A DNA stretch of 63,829 bases, counting the filler, from Reclinomonas americana ATCC 50394 (taxonomy: Eukaryota): assembly GCA_048213135.1 (NCBI GenBank). It is 5 parts of 3 records of this genome, joined end to end, with 100 filler letters (N's around TTAATTAATTAA, not from the genome) between each part and the next. Parts side by side here need not be neighbours in the genome. Positions count along the whole stretch, not along the records: positions 1 to 31,156 come from PS015079.1; 4 more parts are not named here. One strand, 5' to 3'. Made by a program: the position numbers and the translations under genes. How positions within the stretch are numbered: the first letter of the stretch is position 1; every line of letters starts with the position of its first letter. This document shows, piece after piece, positions 1-56,644 of the stretch. The notes beneath the pieces were generated by a model. It did no database searches, was not told where the DNA came from, and was given only the letters and a program-made list of their open reading frames with translations.

Positions 1-690
1 ATTGGCATTCACCGCCGCGGCCACGGCACTGGCGGCGGAGGCCAGCTCTGCTCCGCTGGGCGGTGCCGCGTACCCGTAGGGATTGTGTGGCGGCGCAGCA
101 CCGTAAGCGGGCGCGCCTTCCGGGTAGTACACTTGACCGACGCCGCGTTGGGAGCCGTCGACAAGAATCGGTGACTTGGACATGCTCACACTGCGTGGAT
201 CAAGGGTGAATGCATGCTGCGACGTGAGAGACTGCCGTGTCACACACACCGAATCGGTCGACCGCGAATGGAGGAGCCCGACAATTGACACGCTCCGCCC
301 GCCGTTCTCTCGTCCTGGAACTCGACAAAGCCGAAGCGGGTGTCGTGGTACTATTGGTGCGATCAGTGGAAAAGATAATGAGGAAAGGATGCGGGCAGAC
401 GCAACTCGATCGCCGGCCAGGACGACCTTGGCGACAGGCCCGGCGTTGGCCACGAAAAAGTCGGCCAGCTCGTGCTCGGTGATGCCCGAGTCGAGACCGC
501 CGACGTAGACAGTGCGTGTGACTGCCGCTCGCTTCTCGTCGGGGAGGCTCTCCATGGCGCGGCGGGAGGACACGGAGGTGAGGATGGCGTTTTTGGAGGG
601 GGCGATGCTGTGAAAAGGGGGATGAGACACAGGGAGGAGAGGGGGAGGGAGGAGGGGAGAGCGGAGGGAAAGAGGCAAGAGAGAGAGAGA

Positions 691-725
<35 letters not shown>

Positions 726-1830
726 GAGAGAAGAGATGCATGAGTGAGAGCTGGAAGGATGAGATTTTGATGAGCGAGAGATTGGAAGCGCAGAGGACGG
801 GATTCACAGAGAGCGAGAAAGAGACGACGCGCGAGAGTGGAGGGACACAACTCATCATAGGAGCGCACGAAAAATGTGCACAAGGAAGCAATGGGTGAGA
901 AGAGACGCACGATGCATGTGAGGATGAGAGGCTAGACGAGAAGAGAGACTGTGCGCAACTGCAGTACAAACAAAGAACGCGGTGAGAGGAACGCAAGAGA
1001 ATTGGTAGCAACAGAACATGAGCAGGGAAAGAAGAGAGATAGAGCACAATGGAGACGAGAAAGCTGCATGGAGTGAAGAAATGATGAAGAGAACAGGATA
1101 CCTGGGAGAAAGAGAGAGCGACAAGTGATTTGTCACCAAACACACCTGAGTTTCGAGGTGCCGAGCTGAATACCGTTGAGGTGAAGCGCGGACTTGGCCT
1201 TCTCCGGTGTCTCAAACTCGACAAATGCGAAACGCGTCTGGTGATCCATGTCGCCACACATGCGACACTCGGTCACCACGCCGCACACACTGAAGAATTC
1301 CTTCAGTTGCGTCTCTGTCAGCTGCAACGCCGAGGACAGAGTGAGAGATGATGTGCAAACGTGAAGTGAAGAAAGGCGCGCTGACCTGTCGATCAATCTG
1401 CGAGACGTAAATGGTCCGCGGAATGAGGACTGCTTCGGCGGCAGCACGGGACGCGTCGCGATGAGATGGCGGTTGTTGCGGTCTGGGCATGCCGTACATG
1501 GGCGGTGGTGCCATCTGCATTGCGAAATGGGAGTCAAGGTCGGCGCCCGATGACAATTACTCACTGGCACTGCACTCTATTACTTGTCCTTCGCTGCCTA
1601 ATTGGTTGCATTCTGTCTGCATGTCTTCCTGTCGGTCTGTCTCTGCTTACTCACCCGCATCATGTAGGGATCCATGTGAGGCATCTGGTGCCCGTAGCCC
1701 ATGGGCATTGGCGGTGGGTACATGGGCGCGCCAACCATAAATGGGGCCATTGGCGGTGGCTGCAGAGGCGAGAGATTTAAGCGGGAGGGCGGGGAGAGGG
1801 AGGGGGAGAGGGAGAGAGCGAATGAAGGGA

Positions 1831-1908
<78 letters not shown>

Positions 1909-2175
1909 TGTTGTGAGTGGCTATGAGAGAACAAAATGAGCGACAGAATGAGAGACGGAGAGTGGAATGCGACAGGAAGGAGGGTTGCACAGCTCAAACG
2001 ATGCGCGCAGGGATCTGAGGAGACGCAACTGCGACCGGGGCAATGGCGCTCTTGCTCGCCTGCACCTTCAGTCGCTTCCCGCCCAGGGTCACGCCGTCGA
2101 GCTGCTGGGCAAGGACCGCGCATGATGGGTCGGAGAACTCGACAAAGCCGAAGCGGGAGGGGTGGGCGGCGTCGC
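1..2175 (-). CDS. Multi-RRM RNA-binding protein resembling plant CID8-13/RBP37; multi-exon, partial at both ends
   Basis: Spliced exons give RTIYVSQIDRQ|LTETQLKEFFSVCGVVTECRMCGDMDHQTRFAFVEF...SKNAI and RTVYVGGLDSGITEHELADFF...GDR|YHDTRFGFVEF. A third RFGFVEF motif lies near 2140-2165. Introns are GT-AG. Confidence 0.8.
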
Positions 2176-2405
2176 TGGAGAGGGAGGGAGGGGGTGGAGG
2201 GTGAGATGAGAGGGAAATGAAGAGTGTGAATGCAAAAGAGAATGTGATGGAAGAGAGACGTGAGAGAACAGGAGCAGAGGGTGGCTGCGATACAAGGGGT
2301 TAAAGAGAGAGAAAGCGAGAGACGCACACCGAGGCGCAGAGAGGGGGAGTTGCTTGGAGGTCAGAGAGAATAAGAGAGACTGCAGCACATGGGTGAAGAA
2401 TGGGA

Positions 2406-2490
<85 letters not shown>

Positions 2491-2971
2491 TGTGAGAGAG
2501 AAGANNNNNNNNNNNNNNNNNNNNNNNNNNNNNNNNNNNNNNNNNNNNNNNNNNNNNNNNNNNNNNNNNNNNNNNNNNNNNNNNNNNNNNNNNNNNNNNN
2601 NNNNNNNNNNNNNNNNNNNNNNNNNNNNNNNNNNNNNNNNNNNNNNNNNNNNNNNNNNNNNNNNNNNNNNNNNNNNNNNNNNNNNNNNNNNNNNNNNNNN
2701 NNNNNNNNNNNNNNNNNNNNNNNNNNNNNNNNNNNNNNNNNNNNNNNNNNNNNNNNNNNNNNNNNNNNNNNNNNNNNNNNNNNNNNNNNNNNNNNNNNNN
2801 NNNNNNNNNNNNNNNNNNNNNNNNNNNNNNNNNNNNNNNNNNNNNNNNNNNNNNNNNNNNNNNNNNNNNNNNNNNNNNNNNNNNNNNNNNNNNNNNNNNN
2901 NNNNNNNNNNNNCGTCCTGGTTCTGATTTGGTCCTGATTTGCAGAGCCGCTGTTGATAGTTGACGAGTTGC

Positions 2972-5900
2972 ATGGCTTCTTCTTCTTCTTCTTCTTCTTC
3001 TCCGTCCTCTTCACGCTCTGGAGAACTCGATCGCAACATTCGAAAACTGCAGGATGTGATGGGCGAGCTGACCAACACTCGCGCAGGTCTCGACTTGATG
3101 ATTGTTGCGTCTCACAGATGTGCACACTGTTGTGCATGCGGGATACGCTTGGTTCGCCTCTCGATCTCCGTTGCTGGTTGCACGAAACGTGTGCACCAAG
3201 AGATATCGATTTTATTGTCCGCCTACAACTCTCCACCACATTCTTCACGCGCATTCTTTAAAGTGCTGCAGTACGAGTGTCTCGTTTTTTCTTTGTTAGA
3301 TATACTTTCGCTGTTAACACCGGCCGGTACCTTGCAGCTTGTTGATGCGTCTGGCAACATCAGCGCAGACCAGTTCAACATCATGCGTCAGTGCCTTCGC
3401 CTCCTCCTCGACCGAGTTCCATTCGGCGAAGGTCCGAAGCAGACTCGTGTTGGCATCATTCAGTGTGCCACCGACGCGCACTTGGTCGCGCCTCTGCAGT
3501 CGGATCTCACTGCGTTGCAGAGCTCATTCACCAGTGCGTCGAAACTGCACATGTCAGCATGCATGCACAGTTGTGCATGTGTCAACATGCACACGGATGC
3601 ATATGAACTAACAACGGTCTCGGTTGGTTCTTGCAGACATGAAGCCTCTCAAGTCCAGAGTTCGAAAAACCAACACGGCATTGGGTCTCCGGCGGTGTGA
3701 TGATCACTTCGCGATCAATTCGACGCGTCGTCGTGGTGCTCAACAAACCATCCTTGTTCTCACTGATGGTTGCCCCGTTAACCGCAAGGAAACATACGAC
3801 GTGGGTGCTGAGTTGCTCGAGCAGGTGCGTAAGCGTTGGCGAACTTGCACAAATAGACGCGAAAGCCGCTCGCATCAACTCATGTACTGTACGCTGCGAG
3901 CCCAGCGTGTGACGATTGTGGCCCTCGGAATCGGCCGCATTGCTGAGGAACTTCGCGTTATGTGCGCCCCGAACTGCGACCTGCAGGTGCAAAGTTTCGA
4001 CGATCTGGACACTCTGTTCAAGTGCGCCATGTTGCCACCACGAGCGCCGCCGACTGTTCTGTCCAACGGCTTGACATCTTCGAAGATAAGCGTCAAGTTT
4101 GAGATGTATGTATTCTTGCGTGCTGCAATGCATCTGCCTGTACCAGTAATTTCTCTGCTGTTTCCCCAGGCCCGAGGGCTTTGGGCAGGTGGTTGAGTAT
4201 GTTGTCGAGCGCAAGGATCGTGCAGGTGGTGAGCAAGCATATTTCCATGCATGTGACATCAGTTGCTAGCGCTATACATGCTGCTGTTGACACGTGCACG
4301 TTGCATTTTCTCAGGGCGGTGGCGACCGGAAGAGACTACGTCCCTGGCGGTGTGCGACTTTGAAAATTTGCAACCCGAGGTAACAACTAAATTGCTTGCG
4401 CACAGTAGTGAACTTAAAAGTATTTCATCACACTGCGGTTCTTGCCACACGCAGACCGAGGTCACAATTCGTGTACGAGCCATCTACCGCGATCGAACGC
4501 TGAGCGAGTGGAGCGAGGAATTCACCGCGAAGACACTGAGAGGCAAGTGATTAATGTTGCAGAACGCACAGCACAATCCGTGTGACTTGGCTGACAATTC
4601 TATTTTCCAATCATCTCCTGCTCAAGATGAACAACCTCGGTCGCCAGTGGCCGCACAGGAGCATCGACGAGGTGATTCTCATGTAGTTGCCGCAGTGGCG
4701 TACCGGCAGACGGGTGTTTTGTTAGCATCGTCAGGCTGCGCTCGCTTGCTCCAAGGAAGACGTCAGTCTGGTGTCGACGATGAACCAGTTAAGCGTCGAT
4801 CTCCGACGGCGTGCGCAAGCATGTTTGTTCGGTGCTAATATCCTGTCTGCGATGCGTTATGTTTACAGGTGGTGATGAAAGTGTTTGGGCGGCAACACCG
4901 TGCACTCTTTGACCGTGAGCTCCTTGTGCTGCAAGACGTGCGTCGGTTAATTCCACTTTGTGCTGTCCGCCTGCTGGATGTGTTGGAGGACTTTACGCCA
5001 GGCGAAGAGGACGCGCTGGTGCTACAATTCGGCAAGGGGTCGGTCTCTGAACGCCTCGAGGCTCACGTGCGCGATGGCAGGTGGGTGGAGCCGTCGCCAC
5101 TCGTTCGTATGATGCAATTTGCGATTGATGGTCATGACGATCGCTTTCGTTCTGCTCAGCATTTCACTTGCGGAGCGTCGTGCGTTGATCACAAATATGT
5201 TCACGTGCGTTCAGCAGCTACACGAGAGCACCAACTACGTATGGGTCGACTGCAAACCGGCCAACGTTGCGTCGTGCTCTTGATCAAGTCACAGTTAAAT
5301 TAAGCAGATCAGTAGTATCGACTAGAGAAGTACTGTATGCTAGCTACACTGCGCAACGTGCCTCAATTGATAGTCCCTCTCTTTGTTTCTGTGTGTATGC
5401 AGTTTGTCTTCTTCGACGACGACGATCGGCGGAGGTCAGAGCGCATGTGCATGGTTGACTTTGACAGCGCTGTCGAGCGTGGTGCGTAAGCAATTGTGTC
5501 TTCACTTATTTATCAGCCACAGCACTGTACAAATGGTGATCGATGCAGGGGAACCTGCCATCGGTACTTGGACTCCTGCGTACGGTGAGCGTAATATGAG
5601 TACCTCCAAACCCTTGCCATGAACACTGTACGCTCACCATCTGTACCCTCGCGGTACAGCGCCCCCCGAGCGATTTCTGGCGGAGCGCAATGGCACACCA
5701 TTCGTGGCGCAGCCTAGCAGTGATGTGTGGTCTCTTGGCATCTCGGCATTGGAGGTGCTCACTGGTTCCATCTGGTTCCGCACCAGGGGCATCGATGTCA
5801 GTGAACTCAGCACCGTGCTGACCGACCGTGATCGAGTGGCATCGGTGAGTGCTTGCAACATTTGCGTTTCTCGTTTTTTGTTTGACGTCTCACCAGGTAC

Positions 5901-8074
5901 TTTGCAGATGTTTTCCAAGAATTCACTGATACAAGCATTCGAATTGCCTGCTGAGTTTGCCAGTCTTCTGTCAAAGATGTTGGTGTTTGAACCACTGGAT
6001 CGACCCACCGTGAATACCCTACTTCGCGATGCCGTGTTCGTGGGCGCGTCGTACACGCAGAGTGTGTTGGGAGCGTGCGTCGCCTTGCTGCTGCTTGAAT
6101 CTTTGAGAGTGTGATTTCTTATCTCCCATTACTGTTACCACGTTGGTCTCAGGCTGGTGAATAGCACAGCTGAACTTCGTCAGGGCCAGTCGGGTGAGTT
6201 GCCACTGCATAATCCCCACCGCTGCTGCGTTGTTAACGTTGTTGCTCATGGTGTTGGTGCGTTTTGCCAGACATCTTGAATGCGGTGGCGCGACAGGCGC
6301 TGAACCATTGCCCGTCATTGTGCTTTGTGCTGCCGGAAAGGCAGGACACCTGGTTCACTCGTGCTGTGGCGTGCATCAGTCCTCACGAGCAGCTGCGCAC
6401 TGGCTGTTCGAATTTATCATGTTAGTGTACACGTGTGATTGTTCGTCATCTCACTGTTGTTGCACAGGTTCCGTCTGTTTGTGTTTTGTGAGTTCCAGGC
6501 CGTGTTGCCTACATCGCTATTCCCGACAGCCCGTGGCTTTCCAGTGGTTTGTACTTGCATTTGTGGTTGTCGTCGCGATCGGATCTGACTGCATGCACGT
6601 TTGTCACAGGGCGAGCAGCGCATTTGTGTGACACCTCTATGGCACCCAACTGGGCGCGAAGGAGTGCAGCTGGTCCGCGAGAAGCAATGGTGGCTGAAGG
6701 TGTCCAAGATTGTTGTGCGGGCGCTGAAGGTGACCAGCTTCATGGCACGTGTTAGCCAGGCGGTGCGGTTTGCTATGTCGCGATCGGTGCCATTTAGCAG
6801 TCTTTTGCGTACTTACACTGGTGGCACAGTGTGGCTTCCCTGTCCCAGATATTGAGGGCGTCGTGGAGTTTGTGACGAAGGCAAAAGAGACATTCAACAG
6901 TTATGCGCTCATCTCCTCGACGTTTATCTGCACATGCGCGATCATATCGCGCTCACCAACGAAGGTTTCGCTCGCAGCCATTGTTAACGAGTTGCATTGT
7001 GAACAAAACGTCGATGAGCTGGCGGAACTGCAAGCAAGGTTGGTTGTTATTATAATTACCCTTCCGCTTTTCGCGCAGCGATCGTTTGCCATTAATCACG
7101 TTTTGCGCAGCGACGAAGAGGTACCTGATGCTGTGCTGCCACGACGGGTGACAGGGTGAGTGGCGTGTGACATCGAGGATCTCGCCTTTGTCAACTACCA
7201 AAAGAGGAGTGCACGCAGCGAGGCTCTCGAGCAAGCACGCGACGTGTTGGGTCTCACCAGCGCGCAGCGCACCTCCGTGGCTGGTGTCACAGCCGTGATG
7301 GTGACACGCGGCGGTCCAGCGGGTCCAGTCGGTGACTTATTGTGGGTGTGCGAAGATCATGCAGGGCTGATCGAAGCCTGGAACCAGTATCACATTCAGG
7401 ACGAGATCGAATTTCTTGATCGTGCACTTCGTGTATGCCGATGCGGCAGCCGCTACATGGAGTTGCGTCAATCGTACTTTCGCACTTGTGATCGCGGTGC
7501 ATGATATTGTGTTTGCAGTCCATACGGGCCACCATTGACTGTCAGTGGAGCTGGATCACCAACGGCGGCTTCTGCCGCGTCTCCATCGGCTGGTGCCAGT
7601 GGCAGTAGCAGTGCTTTGCCTGATTCTGCGCCGCCTGCCGCGGTGTTGCGATCATGCATGGTGAAGAAGTTGAGTGCACGATTGTTTTTCATGAATTCAC
7701 GCAAGCGCGTTTGTATATTTTGCAGCTGCATGCAGCTTACCTGCGTGCTCTTGATGTCATGATGTTTATGTAGGAAGTCGACGGGGTGGATTCCGGGATG
7801 GAACAATCGCTTCATGTTGTTGGATCCCGCCGCCGGCCACGGTTTCGTTCGATGCTACAAGGACGCATCGTGCAAAAAGCTGATTGGCGTCATGACGCTC
7901 TATGACAAGTCGTTTGCAGCCGACGACGTGCGCGGCGAGCTGGCCTTTTTCGACGCTCATGGCAACGTGCAGTCGCACATCCGCTTCCCCTCCACATCAG
8001 AGTTGCAGGCGTGGTGTCGTGATCTGGTGCTTCTCGGGGTGCCGCGAGTGGATGTGGATTTCGGGAGCATTTAA
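2972..8074 (+). CDS. Multi-exon VWA - FN3 - protein kinase - COR-C-terminal-like - PH domain protein
   Basis: VWA: DLMI|LVDASGNI...RVGIIQ...TNTALGL...ILVLTDG...IVALGIG. FN3: VRAIY...SEWSE. Kinase: VVMK, VWVDCKPAN|FVF, VDFD, APPE, SDVWSLG, DRPT. Then FRLFVFCE...WH and LLWVCEDH motifs. PH-like: VKK|KSTGWIPGWNNRFMLL...ELQAWC. Some exon joins are uncertain. Confidence 0.7.
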
Positions 8075-8207
8075 ATTTTGACCCAGTACAAGTGCGCCAT
8101 GTTGTGATTGGAGTGAGACGTCCGCATGTGCACATACGTGCCCAAGCATTGCAATATTGTACGCATGCAGTGTCAAATTTCATTCTTCCACATTTTTTTC
8201 GTCTTTC

Positions 8208-10274
8208 ATGCGCGCTCTTGTCTTTGTGTGCCTCGTGCTGCTGCTGGCGCTGTGCGTGTTCGCCAGCACGTCGTGGGCCTCGTCACGCCTGCTGCGTGGT
8301 GAGCAAGCGGAGGAGGAGATGTCGGCGCAGCATCTCTTTGGTGGCCGTGTGGGCGACGACCCCGCCGATTCGTGGTTGGCCTACACTGTTGAGTGTGTGG
8401 GAGAGAGGGAGAGGGAGAGAGGGGGAGGGAGAAGGAGGAGAGGGGGGCGAGGGAGAGGGAATGAGTGAGTCGGAGCAATGCATCACAGCGTGTGTTTGTG
8501 TTGTGCGTGTGTGTGCAGACNNNNNNNNNNNNNNNNNNNNNNNNNNNNNNNNNNNNNNNNNNNNNNNNNNNNNNNNNNNNNNNNNNNNNNNNNNNNNNNN
8601 NNNNNNNNNNNNNNNNNNNNNNNNNNNNNNNNNNNNNNNNNNNNNNNNNNNNNNNNNNNNNNNNNNNNNNNNNNNNNNNNNNNNNNNNNNNNNNNNNNNN
8701 NNNNNNNNNNNNNNNNNNNNGGGAGGGAGGGAGGGAGGGAGGGAGGGAGGGAGAAGGATGGGTGTGGAGAGTGAAGGAGTGAGTCGGAGCAATGCATCAC
8801 TCTCTTTGATTGTGTGTATGTGCGTGTGTGTGTGTTGTGTGCATGTGTGCAATGAGAGAGAGAGGGAGGGAGGAAAGCAAGGGAGGGAGGGAGGGAGGGA
8901 GGGAGGTTAGAGCGAGACGGAGCAATGCATGACTTTTGTCTGTGTCTGCTTTTGTGTGTGCGTGTTTGCGAAAAGGGGGAGAGAGACAGATAGATAGACA
9001 GACAGACAGAGAGGGAGAGAGAGAGAGAGAGAGAGAGCGAAAGAGTGAGAGAATGCACGACTGTCTATGTCTCCCTTCTCTTTCCTGTTGTGTGTGGCTT
9101 ATTGTGTGTTCTGTGCAGGTTGCCAAGGGCAACGGAAAGAAGGTGACTTATGTCAATGCCACTTGGGTGGTGCCGGAGTTGCGTACGTGTGTCAGTGAGT
9201 GCGATTTTCTCCGCCGATCTCGTTTTGCGCGTTCTCTCATGCTCACTTGCATGTGCTTGCCGCATCATGGCTCGCTTCTCACCTGCACATGTTCTCTCTC
9301 ACCCCCTCTGCGCTCTCTGTCTTTCTGTCGCGCGCGTTCTCTCGTGCTAAGTGCTTGTTGCTTTTCCTCCCTTTCCTCCCTCCTCCTCCTCCTCCCCCTT
9401 TCCACTCACGCCCACCACCCACAGGTACCCCAACCGCCGCGACTCGAGCGGCAACGCTCCCGGTGAGTCCTGCCCATCCTCCCCCTTTTCCGAAATCCAC
9501 TCTCACTCATTCCCTCTCACACATACAGGTTTCTGGTTCGGCATCGAGCCGGTGGTACGACACTCTCTCTTGTGCGCCTCGCACCGTCATGGCTATTGAT
9601 TCAGTTCCTCTGCAGCCCGCTGATCTGCTCATTCAACCCATCCTGGCGTACGGCGACACTGGCAACTTCCCGCCGCGCTACTCCATCTTCAATGGTAAGT
9701 GCCTGCTCGCACTGCCTCTGATTTGCGTGTCACGTGTCTGATTGTATCCTTTATCGCAGGCTACTTTGACTGGTTGAATGGCCAGTTGCGTACTTCCCTC
9801 TGTCGTCTCTCTCTCTCTCTCCTGCGCCTGCATGTCGCTGCCACCAAGTCACGCAGCGCAGCTCATCGATGATCGCCTCCGCTCGCGCTCTCTTCGCACC
9901 TCCCCTTTCTCTCGGTGTTGCGCCGAGCTGCCTCCGAGGAGCACAGCAGCGCAACAGCGCAGCGCGCCCACGCTCGATCTCTCCTCTTTCTAGCCCCTCT
10001 CTCTCTCACTCTCCCCTTTCTCTTGCGCCGAGCAAGCCGCTGCCTCCCAGGCCGCAGCGCAGCTCATCGATGAACACCTCCACTCGTGCGGCTCTCTGTC
10101 TTCTCTCTCCCTCGCTGGTCTCTCTTGTGTTGCGCCTGTGTGTCGCTGCCACCAATGCGCGCAGCAACGCAATAGTGCAGCGCATCGATGACCACCTCCG
10201 CTCTTCTTCTCTCTCATTTGTCTCGCTTGTCTCTCTCTCTCTCTCTCTCTNNNNNNNNNNNNNNNNNNNNNNNN

Positions 10275-10332
<58 letters not shown>

Positions 10333-12189
10333 TCCCTCTCTTTTCCCTCCATCTTTTGTCCCCTCCTCTTCTCTCTAGTGCCTAGCATGTCGCTGCCACT
10401 ACGGCATCAGTGCAGCGCATCGATGATGGCCTCCACTCGTCTCTCTCTCTCTCTCCATCTCCTGTCTCCTCCTCTCCTCCTCCTCCTTCTCCTTCTCCTC
10501 CTCCTCTTCCTCTCTCTCCCTGTGTCCCTCTGGCGCCGAGCCACCACTGCAACAGCGCAGCGACCACCGCCTCTGCTCGTTCTCTCTCTTTCCTCTCTCT
10601 TTCCTCTCTCCTCACTCTCTCCCCTTCCCTCTCTTTCCACGCATCGTTGACTCACTCTCATGCACGCAGGTGGTGGCAGTCCGATGACAGGTAACTCATA
10701 CAATCTCTCAAATTATCTTCTGCATGCACCTCCGCCTCTCACCTCTCTCTCGCATCTCCCAGCATCGTCGAGCCGGGCATGCACGTTTTCGGATCGATCA
10801 CCTACCAGACCGACAACTCGTACACCATGCACATTGAGTTGCGTGCTGCAGACACGCACGCTATAATGACTGCGAGACGACTCACACGCCAGCAGATGCA
10901 AGGAGACTGGCTGGCACATTGACTCGAACATCCCGGTCGATCCGTCAGACAAGATCTTCACGGTGTGTTTCTGTGCCCCCTCACTGCGTTCTGCTCGAGT
11001 CTCGTCACTGATGCTGAGTTCTTTCCGCCCCGCAGGACGTGTACTTTGTGGTACGCACCATTGGTAACTGATGCTTTCGTTGTTGAAGTTGTTTCCCATT
11101 GTTCTCGTGTCGTGCGCAGATTGAGCACCAGCCGAATTCGTGCAAGGTTTGTCAGTTCGTTGACTTTGTTGTCTGTCTTTTGTCTCTCCTGCTTGTTTTG
11201 TCTTTCTTCTCGGCGCTTCCTCGTCTTTCTTGTCTACTTTGTCGTGCATTCCTCTTCCCGCTCTCTCCTGTTTTCCTCTCCTTCTTTTGCCTCTTCTTCC
11301 TTGCTGTCCTTCTGTCACTGCTTTTCTTGTTCTTTGTGTTTCTACTGCTCTCCTGTCCATGCCATCTTCCTGTCTTTCTCCCTGCTTATCGTGCCTGCGT
11401 TTCATCTTTACTCATTCAACCTTCCGCGCCCCTCTCCCTCTCCCCTCCCTCTCCTTCTTTTGCTTCTTCTTCCTTGCTGTCCTTCTCTCACTGCTTGTTC
11501 TTGTTCTTTGTGTTTCTACTGTTCTCCTGCCCATGCCGTCCTCCTGTCTTTCTCCCTGCTTATCGTGCCTACGTTTCATCTTTTCTCATTCAACCTCCGG
11601 CGTCCCTCNNNNNNNNNNNNNNNNNNNNTTTCTCTCCCCTTCCTCTCCTTCTTTTGCCTCTTCTTCCTTGCTGTCCTTTCGCACTGCTTAATGTTCTTTG
11701 TGCTCCTACTGTGCTTTCTCGTGCATTCCTCTTCTCCTGCCCATGCCATCTTCCTGTCTTTCTCCCTGCTTTGTTGGGCGTTCCTCTCCTGCTTCTCGCG
11801 CTTGTTTTACTCTTCATCGTCGTGTTTCCTCTCCTGCTTCTTGTCCTCTTCCCTTCTCATTCAATCCTCCCGTCATCTTCTCTTCTGTCGTGCCTCCTTC
11901 ATCCCCCCGCGTCCCTCTCCCTCTCCCTCCCCTCTCTTCCACTCACCCCTCCTCCCACCCCCAGGACTACCCCAAGAACGGCAACGTCACCTTCACCGAC
12001 ATTCACATCGAGTGGGAGGTACGCACCCCCTCCCTCCTCCCCCTCCTCACCCTCCTCCTCACACTACCGCCACCCCAGGGCAAGGAGGCCACCCCGTCGT
12101 GGACTGGCGCGCAGTACAAGCCGGCCTGCAACTCCCAGGCGCACGTCGTCAGCCCGTCGAGTGTGTACTTTACCTGGAACACGCAGTAA
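8208..12189 (+). CDS. Secreted beta-sandwich protein, possibly glutamic peptidase G1-like (copy 1)
   Basis: Signal peptide MRALVFVCLVLLLALCVFAS. Spliced exons read ATWVVPE|YPN...APG|FWFGIEPV|PADLLIQPILAYG...VYFV|IEHQPNSCK|DYPKNGNVTFTDI...FTWNTQ*. Exons are conserved in the second copy. The family call is inference. Confidence 0.7.
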
Positions 12190-12298
12190 GCGAGAGAAGG
12201 GGAAGAGCAGAGGCGCTCCGGTCGCGCATCTCTCTCTCTCTTGTGTTTTGTGGTTGATTGGATTACACACGATTTTCACTCGTTTTCCGTGCTCATTA

Positions 12299-36342: not shown

Positions 36343-38134
36343 ACGAAGCATTGCAGACTTCGGTGTTGTTTGTGCTGGTGTCGCTGATTGTCTTCTTTAA
36401 GACGCAGAGTCGGATTAGAGCAACAGCCGGCACTGGTTGGCAGAGCCATTCAGCGATGGATGTCGTCAAGCAAGGTTTGTCGAGTGCTGTGTCAGCCACG
36501 AGCAATCAGAGTTCAGGTGGCGCCGGCGACTCGAAGAAAAGGTATGAACTGTGACGCCTTCACTGGGACACACACTCCTACGAGTAGTTGCTACAGTACT
36601 TCTCCACCGTCTCGTATGACTGTACAAGGATGTGGAGGAGTGTGGTGACCACGTGGTGCTGTCGCAACGACGCCGGCGCCACTGGCATCTCCGTACCTCG
36701 AGCTGCGTCGGAAGAGCTTGTAGCCGTATCGGACCAGGTGGTAGTGGGCAGCAGCAGTATTAACACTGTGGTGCATGTGGAGTGGGAGCGAGAACAGATG
36801 AGGGCGTGAAACACACTTGCTTTTCGAACGCACAGCACTCGTTTGAGCGATGGAGAATGGGCTTCGGACTCGACGCTGTGGAGTCTCCACCCTGAGCCAT
36901 CGTAGCCACGGCAGATAATGCTGACGTGTATAGCAGGAGGTCTGCGAGATGGTGAGTCCGTGCACTACCACTGCGTCACACTCATCATGGGCGTACCAAG
37001 CAAAAATGCAGACAACTGTCCTGTGTGGACCACATAGAAGGGATACACCAGTAGAGCAGGAAATGCAAAAGCATGGAGAATGTTGATGGTGAGTGACCCT
37101 CCGAGCAGCAGGATCTGCTGAACGGAGCCTGTGCCTCACCATCAGAAGAGTTACACACAGGGACAGCGCATTCGTACGGTGCTGATGCAGGCCCGACCTA
37201 CCAGCCCAGCTCAAGCACGACTTGTCTGGCCCCCTGCTTGGCCGTGGAAAGCTATCCAACACCACCAGAACAGCCGCCTGCCAGGATGCGACGCCGTCGT
37301 CTTTGCGACGAGGCTGAGTCGACCGCAGCGGTTCGTCGACTGATATTCCCAACAGCGCAACACACCACCACTCCAGGGAGGAGCGCGGTGCCCACATTGC
37401 GACGCATGCAGTCGTCTCGCACGAGGCCGCTGCGGCGGAGGTGTCGCTTGCACTGCCTCGACTCGCATCATGAACGGTCCGGGGTGACGCCTCCAGCACG
37501 CAGCACGTTACGTCGTAGAAAAGAGGCAGCACAGAAGGACCATGAAACGTGCAAAGCAGCAGAAAGGCAGAGACACATGCAACCCAAAAGCAGGCACCAC
37601 ACAGAGTACTCGAGTGAGATGCGAGCGATTGCCAGGGGAGTAAACAGAGAACAAGCAGTGGAACTTGTCGGAAAAATGATGGCAAGACAGCCGTTACACA
37701 GGAAAACAAGAACACGACAAAGCAGACTGCCAGCGACACCCACAAGGGGAGCACGAGTTGTGGGATGAGCTGCGCCGCACCGAGACGCTCAAACTCGAGG
37801 AACAGGAAGGGCGTCTGGCCACAAACGAGCTGTACGAGAGCGAGTGGAATCGCGACGCGACTGCGCCAGCACAGAATGCCCATCGCAAACACGCTGAGCC
37901 AACGGACCGGCCACTCGCAACAGCTGCAGAGAGAAAAGAGTGCCACCGACAGGACCCAAAACAATGCTCGAATGCAAGCAAAACAGCATGGTCTGTGCGA
38001 AAAGCCACTCGCCCATGTGCGGTCCACAGGCCAACGACGCAGGAGTGCAGTCGTCAGCATCACGGAGGAGAAACGCACGCGTTTGTAGGCTTACAGTGAC
38101 GCGAGCGGGTGGTGGTCATTGTCTCGCAATCAGA

Positions 38135-46237: not shown

Positions 46238-46643
46238 GTCTGTCTGTGTCTCTTTCTCGCACACATGATTTCGCAAGCACAAGACAGAGTGCATTGCTCC
46301 GACCCCCATCCTTCTCCCTTCCTCTCTCTCTCTCCCTCTGTGTGTGTGTGTGTGTGTGTGCACACACAGGCACACACAAACAAACACATTTTGTGATGCA
46401 TTGCTCCGACTCACTCATTCCCTCTCCCTCCCCCTCCCCCTCCCCCTCTCCCACACACTCAACAGTGTAGGCCAACCACGAATCGGCGGGGTCGTCGCCC
46501 ACACGGCCACCATAGAGATGCTGCGCCGACATCTCCTCCTCCGCTTGCTCACCACGCAGCAGGCGCGACGAGGCCCACGACGTGCTGGCGAACACGCACA
46601 GTGCCAGCAGCAGCACGAGGCACACAAAGACAAGAGCGCGCAT
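42542..46643 (-). CDS. Secreted G1-peptidase-like protein (copy 2), spanning the linker at 44702
   Basis: Exon-by-exon match to 8208-12189. Confidence 0.7.
44555..44590. other. Untrimmed SOLiD/Ion mate-pair internal adapter
   Basis: CTGCTGTACGGCCAAGGCGGATGTACGGTACAGCAG, recognised from memory as this adapter. It is followed by an error-ridden copy of about 41685-41745, as expected for the mate read. Confidence 0.85.
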
Positions 46644-47033
46644 GGCAGAGAGAAATTTGGAATGTGGGACGTCGCCCTTGTTGTGAAGGACGTCGACGTT
46701 CTTGCAGCAGTTCACTCGCTGATCTTGGCTCCGGATATGCTCATCCCGCTCAGCGGTAATACTTTTTTCTTGTGCGATCCGGATACACAACAACAAAACT
46801 TCTCAACCAATAACGCGACCGACCAGTATGTTCGCTCTTGGTTGATCCGCGCACGACAATGAGCATCTACCAGTGATCGCTAACAGCAACACCTCAACAA
46901 GCGCGGTTGAACAATAATGGATTTGACGAACTTGGATAGACTTCATTTTTGCACCAATCCCACTGCCTATCATCGCCATGGTGCATGCGCACGTGCATTC
47001 GGCACAGCGCACAACAGAATCACTTCACGTCAA

Positions 47034-49705
47034 TCAAGTGCACTGATTGACGTACGAGTTGATGGTGTTGAAGGTGAAGGAGCTAGCTCCGAAGCGCGTG
47101 AACGAGAATCCCTTCCACCAGCGATAGTTGTTGGGATTGGAAGCCGGCAGAGTAAACTCCTCGAAGATGCCACTGCTGTTGACGACCGTCACCTTTGCTC
47201 CCGACGTGTGGAGAGGAGTCTCGCCCGAGTAGTTGTGGACGCAGTAGGTGAAGGTGCCGAGGAACGACGGCTGGAAGGTGACGGCGATGATCTCCGGACC
47301 GAATGAAGTTGTGTCGTCTGTGTTGAGTTGGGCAAATGGATACGCGCCCAGCGAACCGCGGTTCGCCAACGGGTAGAAAACGTGATGGGCGATGTTCGAC
47401 GACGGCAGTGGCGTAAACAAGTGGCTGTCGAGGTCGTGCGGATGGATATCCCAGGCCAACAGGACGTAGAGGTCGATCGGAACAGCAGTAACCACAAGGG
47501 TGCCGATGGGAATGTCGTCGTGTGGTGAGGCGGGCGTGTTGAACATGGCGACCGTGCCGGTCGTGCCAAAGTAGTTGGCCACCAGGTTAATCGTGCTGGA
47601 AGAGCGGACCGCGAGCCGGAAACAACCGTCCGTGCCCGTGTACGTGGATGAAGAGCCCGTGTATCCGACTCCAGTGTGAACCACAAGCGCATTCGGCACT
47701 AGCAAGCCAGTGGGGGCGAGCACCACACAGCCGGTGACGTATACGCGTTCGTTGACGTAGACATCGTCAAAGTTCCAGAATGTAAAGTGCGACACACTGT
47801 GTGATAAACAGTACAGTAAATGAGAGACAATGTTGGGATAGCGCAGCGAGCAGGGAACACAGTACGCACGTGCCGACCAGCGCCGTGCCATCGCGCGTGC
47901 TAAGCGTCTCCTGCACCCACTGGCCAGTGCTAGCGTCGAAGCTCCACAGGGGCACCGTGGCTGGTGCGGATGCGGAGAGGGCCGAGTCGAGACGCAGAGT
48001 GGCAGAGGCGCCATGTGCCAGCTCGACCGACTTTCCGTTGACAGAGTCCACCAGGTGCACGTGGAGGAAACCGTAGCTGATAAGCGGTACCGAGTTGCCA
48101 CTGCCATCGCGACCGACAAAGTCACCAGGGAAAGCACCGAGATGTGCGCTCGCATTGCTGAAGTCGAAACCCGACAAGTACACGTTGACGGGGTTGGTGA
48201 CGAGTTGCAACAGGTCGTCGGCGTACGCAAACGCGTTGGCCGGGAAGGTGACCGTGTGTGAATTGCTTGAGACCGTGCCGCCGCTAGACGGCGTCACAAG
48301 CTGTTGCACCTGCGAGTGCGCGAGCAGCACGTCAACCCATGTCGTCTCGCCGTTGACGATCGCCAGCGTGCGGTAGTTATCGAGGTAGCCAGAGAACGAT
48401 GCGATCAGCACAACGCTGGAGCTGGCGTCGAGAATGCCAAACGAGAAGGTGCCCTGATCGTTGGCAAAGGTGCTGTGGCTACCAATGGTGACAGAGGCGC
48501 CGGCGATGATGGCACCAGTGAAGGCGTCCTTCACTGTTCCGTTCACAATGCCGCCGCGGGAGACGCTGCAAGTTTTGAAGTCAGTGAGGAGGGGTTGGGG
48601 GAAGAAGGACATGATAGTCGAAGAAAAGAAATGATACATGCGCACGCACCATACGCGATCACTGGTGGCAGTCGGTGCCTTGCGTTCGACCTGGTTCGCT
48701 TGACACACGGTGAGATCAGTGCACACTCGATTGGCCGTGGCCGTGCACGGCGACGACTGGTACTGGTTCGCCGGGCACGGAGCGCACTCGGTGAAAGCCA
48801 CGCAGGCGGCGGGCGAGCCGCACGTGCCGTTGAAGAAGTAGTTGTTGGGGTAGTTGACACCGTTGCATTCGCCATTGCGACCGCCAGCATAGCACTGGCA
48901 ATGCGTGCCCACATTGAGGTTGCGAGAGAGGTTGCTGCGGTTGCCACAGAAGCACGATCCGGACTGGCAGAAACCGTAGCTGTGAAATACCAACGTGATG
49001 ATCAATACAAAAAGTGTGGTGTGTGATGTGGTGTGTTATCATTCAGCGATGTAGATCTAGAGTACGCAACGGGTAGCTGCAGTCTGAGTCGAAAGTGCAC
49101 GTCACCGTGGGGGGAGTCGACGAGGCGGCAATGCAGGCAGCGGCCGAGGTGCACTGGGTGGAGGTGCCGAAGGCGTAGTTGTTGGGATACGGCGCGCCAT
49201 TGCACTGGCCGCCTTTGCCGCCGGCGTAGCATTGGCACGAGTCGCCGCGGTTGAGGTTGAGCGAGCCGTCCGAGCGGTTGCCGCAGATGCATGAGCCACT
49301 GTGCAGATGGAGGTAAGTCGCGATCGGGAGAGACATGTCTTGACAAAGACGGAAACTGTCTGATTTTTCCGCGCTCATTATGATCATACGAAACACAAAG
49401 CAGCGCATGCGAAACAAGTGGAGTGCACACAAGAGAGAGAGAGAGACATGAAGTGCGTGTGTACAAGGAAGAAAAGTTTCGGAACACAAGAATCTCACAA
49501 GCCAAAAACCACGTGAAATTTGAAAAACACAGCGGCAACGTTAACAACTCTACAAAAGGGTCCACGTGACAAGACGCAACGACTTGCAGTATCCATAGGG
49601 ATAGTTGCATTCCGAGTCACCGCTGCACGCCAGAGCGGTCGTGGCAAACAGGGCCGTGGCCAGCGCAACGATGAGAAGTGTTGTCAGAGTGCGAGTGTGC
49701 GACAT
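47034..49705 (-). CDS. Secreted protein: Cys-rich repeats, TNFR-like Cys repeat, carboxypeptidase-regulatory-like domain, FAM171/CILP-like domain and YfaP(DUF2135)-like C-terminus (paralog A)
   Basis: Signal peptide; CAPCPANQYQSSPCTATANRVC; GTVKDAFTGAIIAGASV; VPLWSFDASTGQW...VSHFTFWNFD; LAWDIHPHDLDSHL...DDTTSFGPE...YCVHNYS; 5 exons. Confidence 0.75.
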
Positions 49706-49833
49706 CTGCAGCACAATTGCAACCGCAGCGCACGAGTGAGATGCAAATATTAAAAAAGGCACAAGCAGAGCACTCAGACCGCACCTTGTCTGCGCTCACA
49801 GAAGGACGAGGAAAGAAGTTCGGCTTGAACACG

Positions 49834-50042
49834 CACTTAGATTCGCCCCACCCACCCTGACAAACTCCGTTCTCGGTGGACCAAAAATGGCTACAACATT
49901 AGAAGTTGTCTCACGCTTAGATTCGCCCGTGACAAACTCCATTCTCGGTTGACCAAAAATGGCTACAAAATTCGAACGAGTTTTTCCGATAGTGTCCGCC
50001 TTTAAGTAGAGCATCCATACGAGTTTCTCCGATCGTGTCCGC
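49834..50042. promoter_or_regulatory. Duplicated motifs in the divergent intergenic region between the two paralogs
   Basis: CTTAGATTCGCCC..TGACAAACTCCRTTCTCGGTKGACCAAAAATGGCTACAA occurs twice (near 49836 and 49916). ACGAGTTTYTCCGATMGTGTCCGC occurs twice (near 49976 and 50019). A regulatory role is inferred from position only. Confidence 0.45.
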
Positions 50043-50250
50043 AGCGCTTCAAATCAGAGCGCAGCACTACAAACAACAACAACCAACGACACAAAACACC
50101 ATTCATGATGGCAGCTGCAGGCTAATGCTGTGCGTCAGCGCGCTGCGCGCGTGGGTGTGTGTGTTTTCGTCAACTGCGATGCCAAATTGAGTCGTCCTGC
50201 AGCAGGCCATTTTCATTTTTTCTCGCACTGAGAGCAGACCAGCCGGTACC

Positions 50251-54943: not shown

Positions 54944-55045
54944 CGGAAGGGATAGGGGGGAGTTATCAACAAGTTTATCGATAGCTTATTTGTGTTGTTT
55001 TTTCCTATGGGACTTGTGGATTGCTTGTTGTCATGTCCTTGCTTA

Positions 55046-55694
55046 CATGGTGAATAAACTGTTCACCGACAGTGGATCTTCGCGATGCGCTCGCTCAACT
55101 GGCAGCCGAGAGTGCCAAGATCAAGTAAGAGAGACCGGCTCTGTTGAGAAGTCGTGCGGCGTGCAACCCGCTCGCAGTCTGGGACCGGCTGCCTGTACTG
55201 CTGCTGCTGCTGAGCGATTGGGCGGTGCTGGCGCATCTCGACCGCAGACTCGTCACCTTGCTGGTGCCGCCAGTGGCCGTGTCGAGTCAGGGAAGGCCGT
55301 TCCCGTCGACAGAGTAGCGCGCGACGTGCCGAACAGCCTTTCTGCGTCCGACCTCGACACTGCAGGCCTGCTTGGCGAGGTTCAGAAGTTGCGTGCTCGC
55401 GTCGAGCAGCTCGGCTACCAGCTGCAAGATGAGAGAGTCGAGCGCAAGCGACTGGAGGAGCAGGAGGTCGCCTTGCGAACGGAACTGGAGGACGCGCACA
55501 GCAATCTGCAGCAACTGCTGGACGTCAAGTCCGAGCTGATTCACCACATTGATCGCCAGGAGAGCGTCATTGGACACCTGCAGGCGTGCGTTCGTGATCG
55601 GGATGGACGACTGCAGAAGTGCTCGAGTGCGTTGGCGGTGCTGGAAAAAGTTGCGTTCCGTACAGCGTGCCGCTCGTGTCGCTACACACTCTGA
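55046..55694 (+). CDS. Putative coiled-coil protein; exon structure uncertain
   Basis: Heptad-like stretch LLGEVQKLRARVEQLGYQLQDERVERKRLEEQEVALRTELEDAHSNLQQLL. Confidence 0.4.
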
Positions 55695-56035
55695 GCAACG
55701 TCGCTGCACAGATCCCGGCGTGACAGCACACTGCAAGAGAGCTCACATCACAATGAACCTCGAGTTGTCACTCATGATCGCACACATTGCACACATCTGT
55801 CGGTAGCCAGCCACAGCAGCAGCTCTTACTAGTGCACCTCTCACAAGGCGTGTCGATCCACTGCGAAATCGGCAACGAGGATCTGCATGCACATCACCAG
55901 GAACGCTAGTCGTAATGCTGTCACTGCCACGCCGCATTGGCGGCTTCTCTCTCTCTCTCTCTCTCTCTCTCTCNNNNNNNNNNNNNNNNNNNNNNNNNNN
56001 NNNNNNNNNNNNNNNNNNNNNNNNNNNNNNNNACA

Positions 56036-56110
<75 letters not shown>

Positions 56111-56202
56111 TACACACACACACACACACACCTTCCTTCATTCGCTCTCTCCCTCTCCCCCTCCCTCTCCCCGCCCTCCCGCTTAAATCTCTCACCTCTG
56201 CA

Positions 56203-56308
56203 GCCACCACCAATGGCCCCATTTATGGTTGGCGCGCCCATGTACCCACCGCCAATGCCCATGGGCTACGGGCACCAGATGCCTCACATGGATCCCTATA
56301 TGATGCGG
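56203..56308 (+). CDS. Internal exon of the second copy of the CID-like RRM gene
   Basis: PPPMAPFMVGAPMYPPPMPMGYGHQMPHMDPYMMR and flanking intron sequence match about 1600-1830 on the minus strand. Confidence 0.8.
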
Positions 56309-56373
56309 GTGAGTAAGGAGAGACAGACAGACAGGAAGACATGCAGACAGACCGAGAGACATACAACGGGACA

Positions 56374-56409
<36 letters not shown>

Positions 56410-56602: not shown

Positions 56603-56644
<42 letters not shown>

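What the first reader, a model, noticed from the sequence alone, without database searches (positions are those of the whole stretch)
2913..8190. Idiomorph-like locus, version 1: a VWA-FN3-kinase gene between the RRM gene and the secreted-protein gene
In the first contig the interval between the CID-like RRM gene and the G1-like gene holds one signalling gene. In the mirrored copy the same two flanking genes, in the same relative orientation, enclose entirely unrelated sequence (46660-55970). Homology stops essentially at the ATG of the G1-like gene. Non-homologous alleles at one locus are the pattern seen at mating-type, allorecognition and hyper-divergent immune loci (inference). Caveat: each side has an N gap next to the RRM gene, so a scaffolding mis-join is possible.
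Basis: partly seen in the sequence, partly recalled or inferred. Interest (0 to 1): 0.7.

Follow-up and report, generated by a model that had tools for sequence, protein, structure and literature searches.

The report
Two gene cargoes at one locus
Two diverged copies of one chromosome region from an unidentified protist carry completely different genes between the same two neighbouring genes. This looks like ordinary large structural difference between uncollapsed haplotypes, not a demonstrated mating-type-like locus.

Summary
The window is five separate records joined by N44-TTAATTAATTAA-N44 linkers. Records B and C, reversed, are colinear with record A.

- **Unique blocks.** A 2913-8206 holds one spliced VWA / FN3-like / divergent kinase / PH-like gene. 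C 46645-55973 holds two head-to-head secreted Cys-rich paralogs and a coiled-coil ORF. The blocks share no similarity.
- **G1 side.** Homology resumes about 30 nt before the G1-like ATG, in gap-free sequence in both records.
- **RRM side.** Both records break in the same (GA)n. C keeps only a ~240-nt exon island. Gap sizes are unreliable: A's 383-N gap hides SF3B3 residues 1-206.
- **Divergence.** Exons differ by 0.4-2.5% and the rest by 9.5%. The splicing gene SF3B3 is present in both copies.
- **A second case.** 153 nt in A is replaced by 1,784 nt in B, with equally sharp edges.

Best reading: uncollapsed haplotypes or homeologs with pervasive structural differences. I found no mating-type-like gene content. 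Allelism is untestable here: no genome is held and no sequencing runs were listed. Interest is moderate to low.

The parts
1..2504 (-). RRM gene of record A (three RRM units; runs off the record start; its 5' end lies in the following gap)
   Evidence: Pfam RRM_1 on frames 1133-1576(-) (E 2e-12) and 1994-2299(-). Three copies of the RNP1-coding 31-mer at 318, 1214 and 2135.
2505..2912 (.). 408-N scaffold gap in A, directly after (GA)38-GTAGTGT-GAGAGAGAAGA
2972..8074 (+). Version-1 cargo: one multi-exon gene (about 16-25 exons, model approximate). Domains: VWA, FN3-like, divergent protein kinase, unknown ~500-aa region, PH-like last exon. ATG 2972 follows an in-frame TAG at 2957-2959. TAA at 8072-8074.
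   Evidence: Pfam VWA and Pkinase. Exon-chaining models. Motif coordinates: DASGN 3338-, TILVLTDG 3747-, VVMKV 4869-, VDCKPAN 5221-5265, DFD 5445-, PPE 5659-. PDB kinases. Atlas: kinase 0.96, PH 0.89.
8075..8207 (.). 133-nt spacer between the version-1 gene and the G1-like ATG. Only its last ~30 nt align weakly with record C.
8208..8396 (+). First 189 coding nt of the G1-like signal-peptide gene in A
   Evidence: 3 differences in 189 nt against C (2 synonymous, 1 not). The signal peptide is read by eye.
8207..19546 (.). Flank of A shared with records C and B (inverted). Includes several unknown genes and the 5' part of SF3B3.
   Evidence: 7.4 kb aligned, 6.8% substitutions, 105 gap events
46455..46643 (-). 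First 189 coding nt of the G1-like gene in record C
46645..55973 (.). Version-2 block of record C, gap-free, unrelated to version 1
47034..49705 (-). Version-2 gene 1. Signal peptide, TNFR-like Cys-rich repeats, CarboxypepD_reg, FAM171-like domain, second CarboxypepD_reg-like domain, C-terminal beta-rich domain.
   Evidence: Pfam. PDB FAM171A2 E 1e-3. Colinear tblastn with P0123, 44% and 39% over residues 29-474, with a frame change at 47811-47865 that requires an intron. Coordinates.
50251..54943 (+). Version-2 gene 2, a head-to-head paralog of gene 1 (the two ATGs are 545 nt apart). Its coding parts at 50251-52115 and 54332-54943 are split by about 2.2 kb (large intron or insertion).
   Evidence: (inner arms 100% and 95% identical, outer arms 71-74%)
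55047..55694 (+). Coiled-coil ORF (215 aa)
   Evidence: Weak coiled-coil Pfam hits below cut-off. Coordinates.
55974..56032 (.). 59-N scaffold gap in C with (TC)n on both sides
56033..56644 (+). RRM-gene island of record C. Layout: ACACTAC-(TC)27-(CA)n, one exon (PPMAPF...MMR), then TC/TGTC-rich low complexity to the record end.
   Evidence: (2 synonymous differences in 111 nt)
16555..16707 (.). Second sharp-edged replacement, A side: 153 nt between two divergently oriented genes
   Evidence: 53/53 and 52/53 identical flanks, interior unrelated
36344..38127 (.). Second sharp-edged replacement, B side: 1,784 nt, no tandem repeat. Contains a 499-codon stop-free frame (36594-38090, -) with no family match.
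17322..17704 (.). 383-N gap in A that must hide SF3B3 residues 1-206. In B these span about 1.8 kb (34432-32623).
   Evidence: tblastn with P0001
31157..31256 (.). Record linker N44-TTAATTAATTAA-N44 (also at 44658-44757, 56645-56744 and 59486-59585)

Best explanation
Record A and records B+C are two diverged copies of one chromosomal region that the assembler did not merge. They are most likely the two haplotypes of a highly heterozygous or hybrid strain.

Between the RRM gene and the G1-like gene, copy 1 carries one native, intron-dense, cytosolic signalling gene (VWA, FN3-like, divergent kinase, PH-like). Copy 2 carries three native genes: a divergently transcribed pair of secreted Cys-rich / CarboxypepD_reg / FAM171-like paralogs and a coiled-coil ORF.

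I read this as haplotype-specific gene content. It is the largest of several kb-scale non-homologous replacements that sit in intergenic spacers of this pair. They probably arose by independent insertion and deletion through non-homologous repair, tolerated only where breakpoints fall between genes.

Shown: synteny of the flanks, non-homology of the blocks, the sharp G1-side edge, and a second replacement of the same kind.

Inferred: allelism, the RRM-side junctions (both lie in N gaps), and the mechanism of origin.

If this is right, each cargo gene is hemizygous in this strain.
For: - Five records, not one mirrored sequence.
- B and C follow A in record order and together are colinear with A 19546->1612.
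- SF3B3, a core splicing gene (best hits are plant SF3B3 at about 55%), is present in both A and B.
- Exons differ by 0.4-1.8%, mostly synonymous (5 synonymous and 1 non-synonymous changed codon in three segments).
- Exon-type columns differ by 2.5% against 9.5% for the rest, with 1.7 against 7.5 gap columns per 100.
- The G1-side breakpoint is in gap-free sequence in both records.
- C's RRM island ends in (GA)27-GTAGTGT, the same motif that precedes A's gap. Both records therefore break at the orthologous microsatellite.
- Both cargoes look native. The intron in version-2 gene 1 is proven by a frame change in a colinear protein match. Predicted donors are of the GTGCG and GTTGCG types noted elsewhere in this genome.
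- A second replacement has 98-100% identical 53-nt edges.
- 3.5 kb of A and 7.6 kb of B/C (N included) in the 'shared' flank do not align.
- Flank divergence is flat (92-96% per block) over 11 kb.
- No mating-type-like domain was found in any frame scanned: 18+44+21 frames.
Against: - Allelism is not shown. No whole genome is held and no sequencing run was listed, so neither depth nor spanning reads could be examined.
- Both RRM-side junctions are scaffold joins across N gaps inside (GA)n.
- C lacks A 1909-2411, which carries the RRM1 exon. This is either a real deletion or an assembly collapse.
- A reciprocal replacement (5.3 kb against 9.3 kb of unrelated genes) needs at least two events or one complex event. 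That is less parsimonious than a simple indel.
- Both blocks are strikingly poor in the (GA)n and (CA)n microsatellites that pepper the rest: 2 loci in 14.6 kb against 49 in 45.1 kb, Poisson P about 2e-5. This reading does not explain that.
- 9.5% non-coding divergence is very high for alleles.
Confidence: 0.55

Rival explanations
1. Non-allelic copies. A and B+C are paralogous or homeologous segments (a recent segmental or whole-genome duplication, or hybridisation) that have lost or gained different genes. The two cargoes are then reciprocal gene loss (fractionation), not alleles.
For: - Very high non-coding divergence (9.5%) with dense indels.
- Several gene-scale differences within 20 kb, as expected for fractionating duplicates.
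- Both copies keep intact, near-identical exons.
Against: - Exon divergence of only 0.4-2.5% implies a very young duplication for so much rearrangement.
- The small, repeat-bounded records B and C listed right after A look like haplotigs.
- A's 153-nt filler is unrelated to B's 1,784 nt, so simple deletion does not explain that case.
- Nothing here can distinguish homeologs from alleles.
Confidence: 0.2
2. Scaffolding or collapse artefact on the RRM side. Copy 2 is really RRM'-VWA-kinase'-(version-2 block)-G1'. Its VWA-kinase allele is either collapsed into record A or left in another record. The only true difference is then a 9.3-kb insertion or deletion next to the G1-like gene.
For: - Both RRM-side joins cross N gaps inside (GA)n.
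- The RRM piece in C is 612 nt with about 240 nt of unique sequence.
- N-gap sizes are unreliable: A's 383 N hide at least SF3B3 residues 1-206, which span about 1.8 kb in B.
- Collapse between (GA)n tracts may already have removed A 1909-2411 from C.
Against: - The 59-N gap would have to hide about 6 kb.
- Collapse of the VWA-kinase alleles would require near-identity across about 20 introns, while neighbouring non-coding sequence differs by 9.5%.
- A random mis-join would not bring the RRM allele next to the G1 allele in both records.
- A's contig runs uninterrupted from the gene into G1.
Confidence: 0.15
3. True idiomorph. The two cargoes are alternative alleles kept by balancing selection. 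They specify mating type or self/non-self recognition, for example a cytosolic signalling kinase in one type and a divergently transcribed pair of secreted recognition proteins in the other.
For: - Completely unrelated, intact-looking gene sets at one syntenic site with shared flanks.
- Block sizes of 5.3 and 9.3 kb are in the range reported for truffle MAT idiomorphs, 7.6-12.1 kb (passages of PMC3864998).
- One cargo is a head-to-head pair of secreted Cys-rich beta-sandwich proteins with signs of gene conversion. This arrangement resembles polymorphic recognition pairs (recalled, not from a call).
- Both blocks have an odd microsatellite-poor make-up.
Against: - No transcription factor, pheromone or receptor domain was found.
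- Flank divergence does not rise towards the block.
- Other sharp replacements occur nearby, so the pattern is not locus-specific.
- Only one pair of copies is available, with no population or segregation data.
Confidence: 0.1

Closest known systems
Uncollapsed haplotigs in assemblies of highly heterozygous diploids (the problem addressed by Purge Haplotigs, PMC6267036; I saw only the start of its abstract, in the listing)
   Same: Small secondary records are colinear with a larger one. Exons are near-identical and non-coding sequence is diverged. The region appears twice because haplotype homology was not recognised. Hemizygous blocks are present.
   Different: The defining half-depth signature could not be tested. 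Divergence (9.5% non-coding) and the density of kb-scale replacements are at the extreme end.
Fungal MAT idiomorphs (e.g. Tuber indicum and T. melanosporum MAT1-1 / MAT1-2, PMC3864998; passages read)
   Same: Unrelated (there, largely unrelated) blocks of several kb occupy one locus between common flanking regions. Extra non-mating genes can ride in an idiomorph.
   Different: Fungal idiomorphs are defined by alpha-box and HMG transcription-factor genes and by segregation with mating type. Neither was found or testable here. The organism is an unidentified protist, not a fungus.
Reciprocal gene loss between duplicated segments after polyploidy or hybridisation (recalled, no call)
   Same: Duplicated colinear segments retain different singleton genes between shared anchor genes.
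   Different: That pattern needs non-allelic copies. The exon divergence here (0.4-2.5%) would make the duplication very recent.
Dictyostelium tgrB1/tgrC1 allorecognition pair (recalled, no call)
   Same: A divergently transcribed pair of extracellular beta-sandwich-rich proteins lies in a highly polymorphic locus.
   Different: The tgr proteins are transmembrane IPT/TIG proteins that are polymorphic in sequence, not present or absent. Here the pair are paralogs without an evident membrane anchor, and no polymorphism data exist.

Membership tests
Idiomorph (mating-type-like locus) | Sequence-unrelated segments at the same position, bounded on both sides by homologous flanks | tested here: inconclusive
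   The G1 side is met in contiguous sequence. The RRM side is reached only across N gaps in both records, and C's flank is a ~240-nt exon island. The blocks are unrelated.
Idiomorph (mating-type-like locus) | The two forms are alleles (same locus on homologous chromosomes), not paralogous loci | not testable with these tools
   No genome is held and no run was listed. Indirect support only: SF3B3 in both copies and the exon/intron divergence pattern.
Idiomorph (mating-type-like locus) | Cargo includes the determinants known for such loci (HMG, alpha-box or homeodomain factors, pheromone/receptor genes) | tested here: not met
   Pfam on 18+44+21 frames of both blocks gave only VWA, Pkinase, TNFR_c6, CarboxypepD_reg, FAM171-N and coiled-coil hits. 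Limit: frames were scanned one by one, so short exons could be missed.
Idiomorph (mating-type-like locus) | Discrete forms segregate in the population with mating or compatibility type | not testable with these tools
   Only one pair of copies is available.
Idiomorph (mating-type-like locus) | Locally raised flank divergence from suppressed recombination | tested here: not met
   Substitution identity per block is 92.3-96.2% with no trend over 11 kb. The genome-wide baseline is unknown.
Uncollapsed haplotig pair | Secondary records colinear with a primary record over their whole length | tested here: met
   B+C are colinear with A 1612-19546, apart from indels, replacements and the cargo.
Uncollapsed haplotig pair | Coding sequence near-identical, non-coding sequence diverged | tested here: met
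   0.4-1.8% in three coding segments. 2.5% against 9.5%.
Uncollapsed haplotig pair | Each copy at about half the depth of collapsed regions | not testable with these tools
   No runs were listed.
Transposable-element or mobile-cassette insertion | Terminal repeats, target-site duplication, or transposase, integrase or RT genes | tested here: not met
   No terminal inverted or direct repeats at the block ends. No such Pfam family.
Eukaryotic protein kinase (version-1 gene) | Pkinase profile match at the curated cut-off, with catalytic Lys, Asp, Asn and DFG | tested here: inconclusive
   Only the C-lobe matches: 28.6 bits against a cut-off of 31.7. PDB EGFR kinase E 1e-6. Atlas 0.96. The motifs VVMKV, VDCKPAN, DFD and PPE can be read in the sequence. 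The Gly-rich loop is degenerate by eye.

The most novel reading that the evidence does not exclude
The RRM-G1 interval is a genuine two-form idiomorph of an unidentified intron-dense flagellate. One form encodes a cytosolic VWA / FN3-like / kinase / PH-like signalling protein. The other encodes a divergently transcribed pair of secreted Cys-rich beta-sandwich proteins, whose closest sequence relatives are myxobacterial, plus a coiled-coil protein. The two forms are kept as exclusive alternatives by balancing selection and specify mating type or self/non-self recognition.
Probability: 0.08. Interest if true: 0.8.

Novelty: new member of a known kind. Interest (0 to 1): 0.35.

Why it matters
**If the ordinary reading holds.** The value is practical. 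This assembly contains uncollapsed, very divergent second copies. Its N-gap lengths cannot be trusted. Gene counts and 'duplications' from it will be inflated. It would also show an organism whose two genome copies differ in gene content every ~10 kb, which is of interest for the population biology of hyperdiverse or hybrid protists.

**If the bold reading holds.** It would be a mating-type or recognition locus of a new composition in a poorly known eukaryotic lineage. A single PCR across the shared RRM and G1 exons would genotype it.

Tried and rejected
**Tests that could not be run**
- Whole genome: none is held. Other copies of either block could therefore not be sought.
- Sequencing runs for A 2913-8190: none was listed. 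Read laying was not used, and no depth or spanning-read test was possible. No RNA holder was listed.

**Earlier notes of this scan**
- Searches near the window, among relatives, by the words haplotype and allelic, and by the sequence of each block returned nothing.
- The genome-wide listing only gave notes on GTTGCG donors and other topics.

**Organism identity**
- It was not obtained. The SF3B3 exon finds plants at about 55% and no near relative among the 120 hits listed.

**Homologs of the version-1 gene**
- The kinase frame and the VWA frame, both searched with 'longer', scored no hits. This is weak evidence.
- The kinase N-lobe frame has no PDB hit.

**FN3 and PH on contiguous frames**
- No Pfam hit even at E<=10.
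- AlphaFold2 on the last exon gave pLDDT 51.7: strands followed by a C-terminal helix, too weak to search with.
- The Atlas gave PH clusters at 0.89, which is a lead only.

**Prokaryote loci related to the version-2 ORF**
- 105 pattern matches, none confirmed.
- The alignment query was rejected for lack of a conserved stretch.

**Mobile-element and RNA signatures**
- No mobile-element signature.
- No tRNA. The only Rfam hit is a 5S rRNA.

**Analyses that did not settle anything**
- My exon-chaining gene models change with parameters: 14 to 25 exons. They are approximate.
- Codon-bias scoring did not settle whether the 499-codon frame in B is coding.

**Rejected ideas**
- A 'palindrome on one molecule': rejected because of the linkers.
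- Bacterial contamination of record C: rejected because of the intron required and the contiguity with G1 exon 1.

Full report
**What the window is.** The 63,829 bases are not one molecule. Four N44-TTAATTAATTAA-N44 linkers join five records: A 1-31156, B 31257-44657, C 44758-56644, D 56745-59485 and E 59586-63829. Another 21 N runs are scaffold gaps. The 'mirrored copy' is therefore just records B and C lying in the opposite orientation to A.

Self-blastn shows that B+C, read backwards, are colinear with A from 19546 down to 1612. B and C meet at the (GA)n where A itself has a 24-N gap (10251-10274). No whole genome is held and no sequencing run was listed for the block.

**The observation.** The two flank matches are real.
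- A 1612-1908 matches C 56351-56056 at 94% (E 8e-130).
- A 8207-19546 matches C and B in nine main blocks of 87-91% identity.

Between the flanks, A 1909/2913-8206 and C 46645-55973 share nothing. There is no blastn hit at word size 9 and E<=1e-3, and tblastx gives only 20-40-residue chance pieces.

On the G1 side both records are gap-free: 2913-8520 and 46063-55973 are two of the three longest gap-free stretches of the window. The alignment shows homology starting about 25-35 nt before the ATG (A 8208, C 46643). The first 189 coding bases differ at 3 sites. The upstream gene lies head-to-tail with the G1-like gene in both copies, with spacers of 133 nt in A and 390 nt in C.

**The RRM side is weaker than it looks.**
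- C's flank is a 612-nt end piece (56033-56644). Only about 240 nt align with A: one exon with 2 synonymous differences in 111 nt, plus adjacent intron. The rest is TC/TGTC/CA low complexity.
- Its inner end reads ACACTAC-(TC)27-(CA)n. Reversed, this equals A's (GT)n(GA)n at 1850-1908 fused to the (GA)n-GTAGTGT that precedes A's gap at 2487-2494.
- So C lacks A 1909-2411, including the RRM1 exon. This is a real (GA)n-to-(GA)n deletion or an assembly collapse.
- Both records break at the same microsatellite. C's 59-N gap has (TC)n on both sides.

Gap lengths here are not trustworthy. A plant SF3B3 (P0001) aligns to A only from residue 207 onward, whereas B holds residues 1-206 over about 1.8 kb. 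A's 383-N gap (17322-17704) must therefore hide at least that much.

The joins are still not random. A chance mis-join would not place an RRM allele beside a G1 allele in both records.

**Version 1 (A 2972-8074, + strand).** One gene fills the block.
- The ATG at 2972 follows an in-frame TAG, and the TAA is at 8072-8074.
- Exon chaining gives 14-25 exons depending on parameters, so the model is approximate.
- VWA is above Pfam's cut-off (34.4 against 23.8 bits), with DASGN and TILVLTDG motifs.
- The kinase is divergent. Only the C-lobe matches Pkinase (28.6 bits, cut-off 31.7). It also matches EGFR kinase chains (E 1e-6) and kinase clusters in the Atlas (0.96). VVMKV, VDCKPAN, DFD and PPE can be read.
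- FN3 rests only on my reading of three short exons (4170-4541, ending ...TEVTIRVRAIYRDRTLSEWSEEFTAKT). Pfam cannot see it on contiguous frames.
- The last exon is PH-like as a lead only (Atlas 0.89; AlphaFold2 pLDDT 51.7).
- No signal peptide or membrane segment is evident by eye, so the protein is probably cytosolic.
- No homolog was found with two exon queries (weak evidence).

**Version 2 (C 46645-55973).** Three genes.
- *Gene 1* (49705->47034, - strand). It has a signal peptide, TNFR-like Cys-rich repeats, CarboxypepD_reg, a FAM171-like domain and a C-terminal beta-rich domain.
- *Homologs of gene 1.* A full HMMER search found 3,901 proteins at E<=1e-3 and 1,637 at E<=1e-10.
  - I looked up names for 20 of the 150 listed. 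Seven of those clusters carry a name.
  - Three name an organism: two Sandaracinaceae (myxobacteria) and one Salpingoeca rosetta.
  - The other four have generic metagenome labels.
- *Closest protein.* P0123 (500 aa) shares a cluster with a Sandaracinaceae MAG protein. It aligns colinearly at 44% and 39% over residues 29-474. A frame change at 47811-47865 requires an intron. Gene 1 is therefore a spliced eukaryotic gene, not contamination.
- *Gene 2* (50251-52115 plus 54332-54943, + strand). It is an inverted paralog of gene 1, and the two ATGs are 545 nt apart. Its inner arms are 100% (248 nt) and 95% (342 nt) identical to gene 1, and its outer arms 71-74%. It is split by 2.2 kb.
- *Coiled-coil ORF.* A 215-aa ORF follows at 55047-55694.

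**What the two copies are.** SF3B3 is a core splicing factor and occurs in both A and B.
- Coding segments differ by 0.4-1.8%. Changed codons: 5 synonymous and 1 non-synonymous.
- In three blocks, exon-type columns differ by 2.5% and the rest by 9.5%. Gap columns are 1.7 against 7.5 per 100.
- Over all nine blocks there are 6.8% substitutions and 105 gap events in 7.4 kb, with no trend in divergence away from the cargo.

This is the signature of two old but functional copies of one region: haplotypes of a very heterozygous or hybrid strain, or very young homeologs. Uncollapsed haplotypes of this kind are a known assembly outcome (PMC6267036; start of the abstract seen in the listing).

**The cargo swap is not unique in this pair.**
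- At A 16555-16707, 153 nt are replaced in B by 1,784 unrelated, non-repetitive bases (36344-38127).
- The edges are 52/53 and 53/53 identical.
- The edges lie within about 10 nt of apparent start codons of two divergent genes (my reading).
- The B segment holds a 499-codon stop-free frame with no family match. Its coding status is unresolved.
- A 12556-13511 (a 143-nt minisatellite) faces 63 nt in B.
- In all, 3.5 kb of A and 7.6 kb of B/C (N included) in the 'shared' flank do not align.

Sharp non-homologous replacement at intergenic spacers is thus a general feature of these two copies.

**Verdict on the idiomorph reading.**
- Structurally the locus fits: unrelated blocks between shared flanks, with sizes like those of truffle MAT idiomorphs (7.6-12.1 kb; passages of PMC3864998).
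- The defining points are either untestable here (allelism, segregation) or not met. None of the 83 frames scanned has a mating-type-like domain. There is no local rise in flank divergence.
- No mobile-element signature explains the blocks.

I therefore favour haplotype-specific gene content (0.55). The alternatives are non-allelic duplicates with differential gene loss (0.20), an RRM-side scaffolding or collapse artefact that would reduce the difference to one 9.3-kb indel (0.15), and a true functional idiomorph (0.10).

**Unexplained.** Both cargo blocks are nearly free of the dinucleotide microsatellites that occur about once per kb elsewhere: 2 loci in 14.6 kb against 49 in 45.1 kb, where 15.8 are expected (Poisson P about 2e-5). 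This is also why they are gap-free. It may mean the cargoes are younger at this site than their surroundings, but I could not test that.

Noticed in passing
window 31157-31256, 44658-44757, 56645-56744, 59486-59585: The window is a concatenation of five separate records joined by N44-TTAATTAATTAA-N44 linkers. Any 'inverted repeat' or 'palindrome' seen across these points is an artefact of record order and orientation.
   Followed up: yes
window 20945-21064 (+): A full-length 5S rRNA match (Rfam RF00001, 103 bits, E 1.7e-21) lies inside the span of the SF3B3 gene of record A. It sits between SF3B3-homologous exons at 20019-20192 and 21562-21741, next to ~100-nt direct repeats at 21126-21520.
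   Followed up: no
window 17322-17704 vs 32623-34432: A's 383-N gap must hide SF3B3 residues 1-206, which occupy about 1.8 kb in record B. N-gap lengths in this assembly can be wrong by more than 1 kb.
   Followed up: yes
window 34217-35442 (-): Record B holds three copies of the first SF3B3 exon region. P0001 residues 1-72, 1-37 and 1-57 align at 34432-34217, 35016-34906 and 35442-35281, within ~440-nt tandem repeats. This is either a real tandem duplication or an assembly artefact.
   Followed up: partly
window 16555-16707 vs 36344-38127: A second sharp-edged non-homologous replacement between the two copies: 153 nt against 1,784 nt. The B segment holds a 499-codon stop-free frame (36594-38090, -) with hydrophobic N-terminal stretches and no family match.
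   Followed up: partly
window 47034-49705 (-) and 50251-54943 (+): The version-2 proteins are closest to a 500-aa protein that clusters with a Sandaracinaceae (myxobacterial) MAG protein: 44% and 39% over residues 29-474. Their Cys-rich repeats are closest to Sandaracinus amylolyticus and Salpingoeca rosetta proteins. The genes have few introns and long exons. Gene transfer to or from bacteria is possible, but no tree was built.
   Followed up: partly
window 49054-49301 / 50435-50682 and 48643-48984 / 50732-51073: The head-to-head paralogs are 100% and 95% identical in their inner (5') arms but only 71-74% further out. This points to gene conversion across the small palindrome, or to local assembly collapse.
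   Followed up: no
window 2913-8180 and 46645-55945: Both cargo blocks are almost free of (GA)n and (CA)n microsatellites: 2 loci in 14.6 kb against 49 in 45.1 kb elsewhere (Poisson P about 2e-5). They also contain none of the 25 N runs.
   Followed up: partly
window 1909-2411 vs 56033-56125: Record C lacks the ~500 nt of A that lie between two (GA)n tracts and carry the RRM1 exon. This is either a broken RRM allele or an assembly collapse between microsatellites.
   Followed up: partly
window 5160-5179 (+): Two of the five exon-chaining runs for this gene place a 20-nt micro-exon in the kinase domain, between strong GTATGA and GTGCGT donors and CAG acceptors. It is unverified. Earlier notes on this genome also mention micro-exons.
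   Followed up: no
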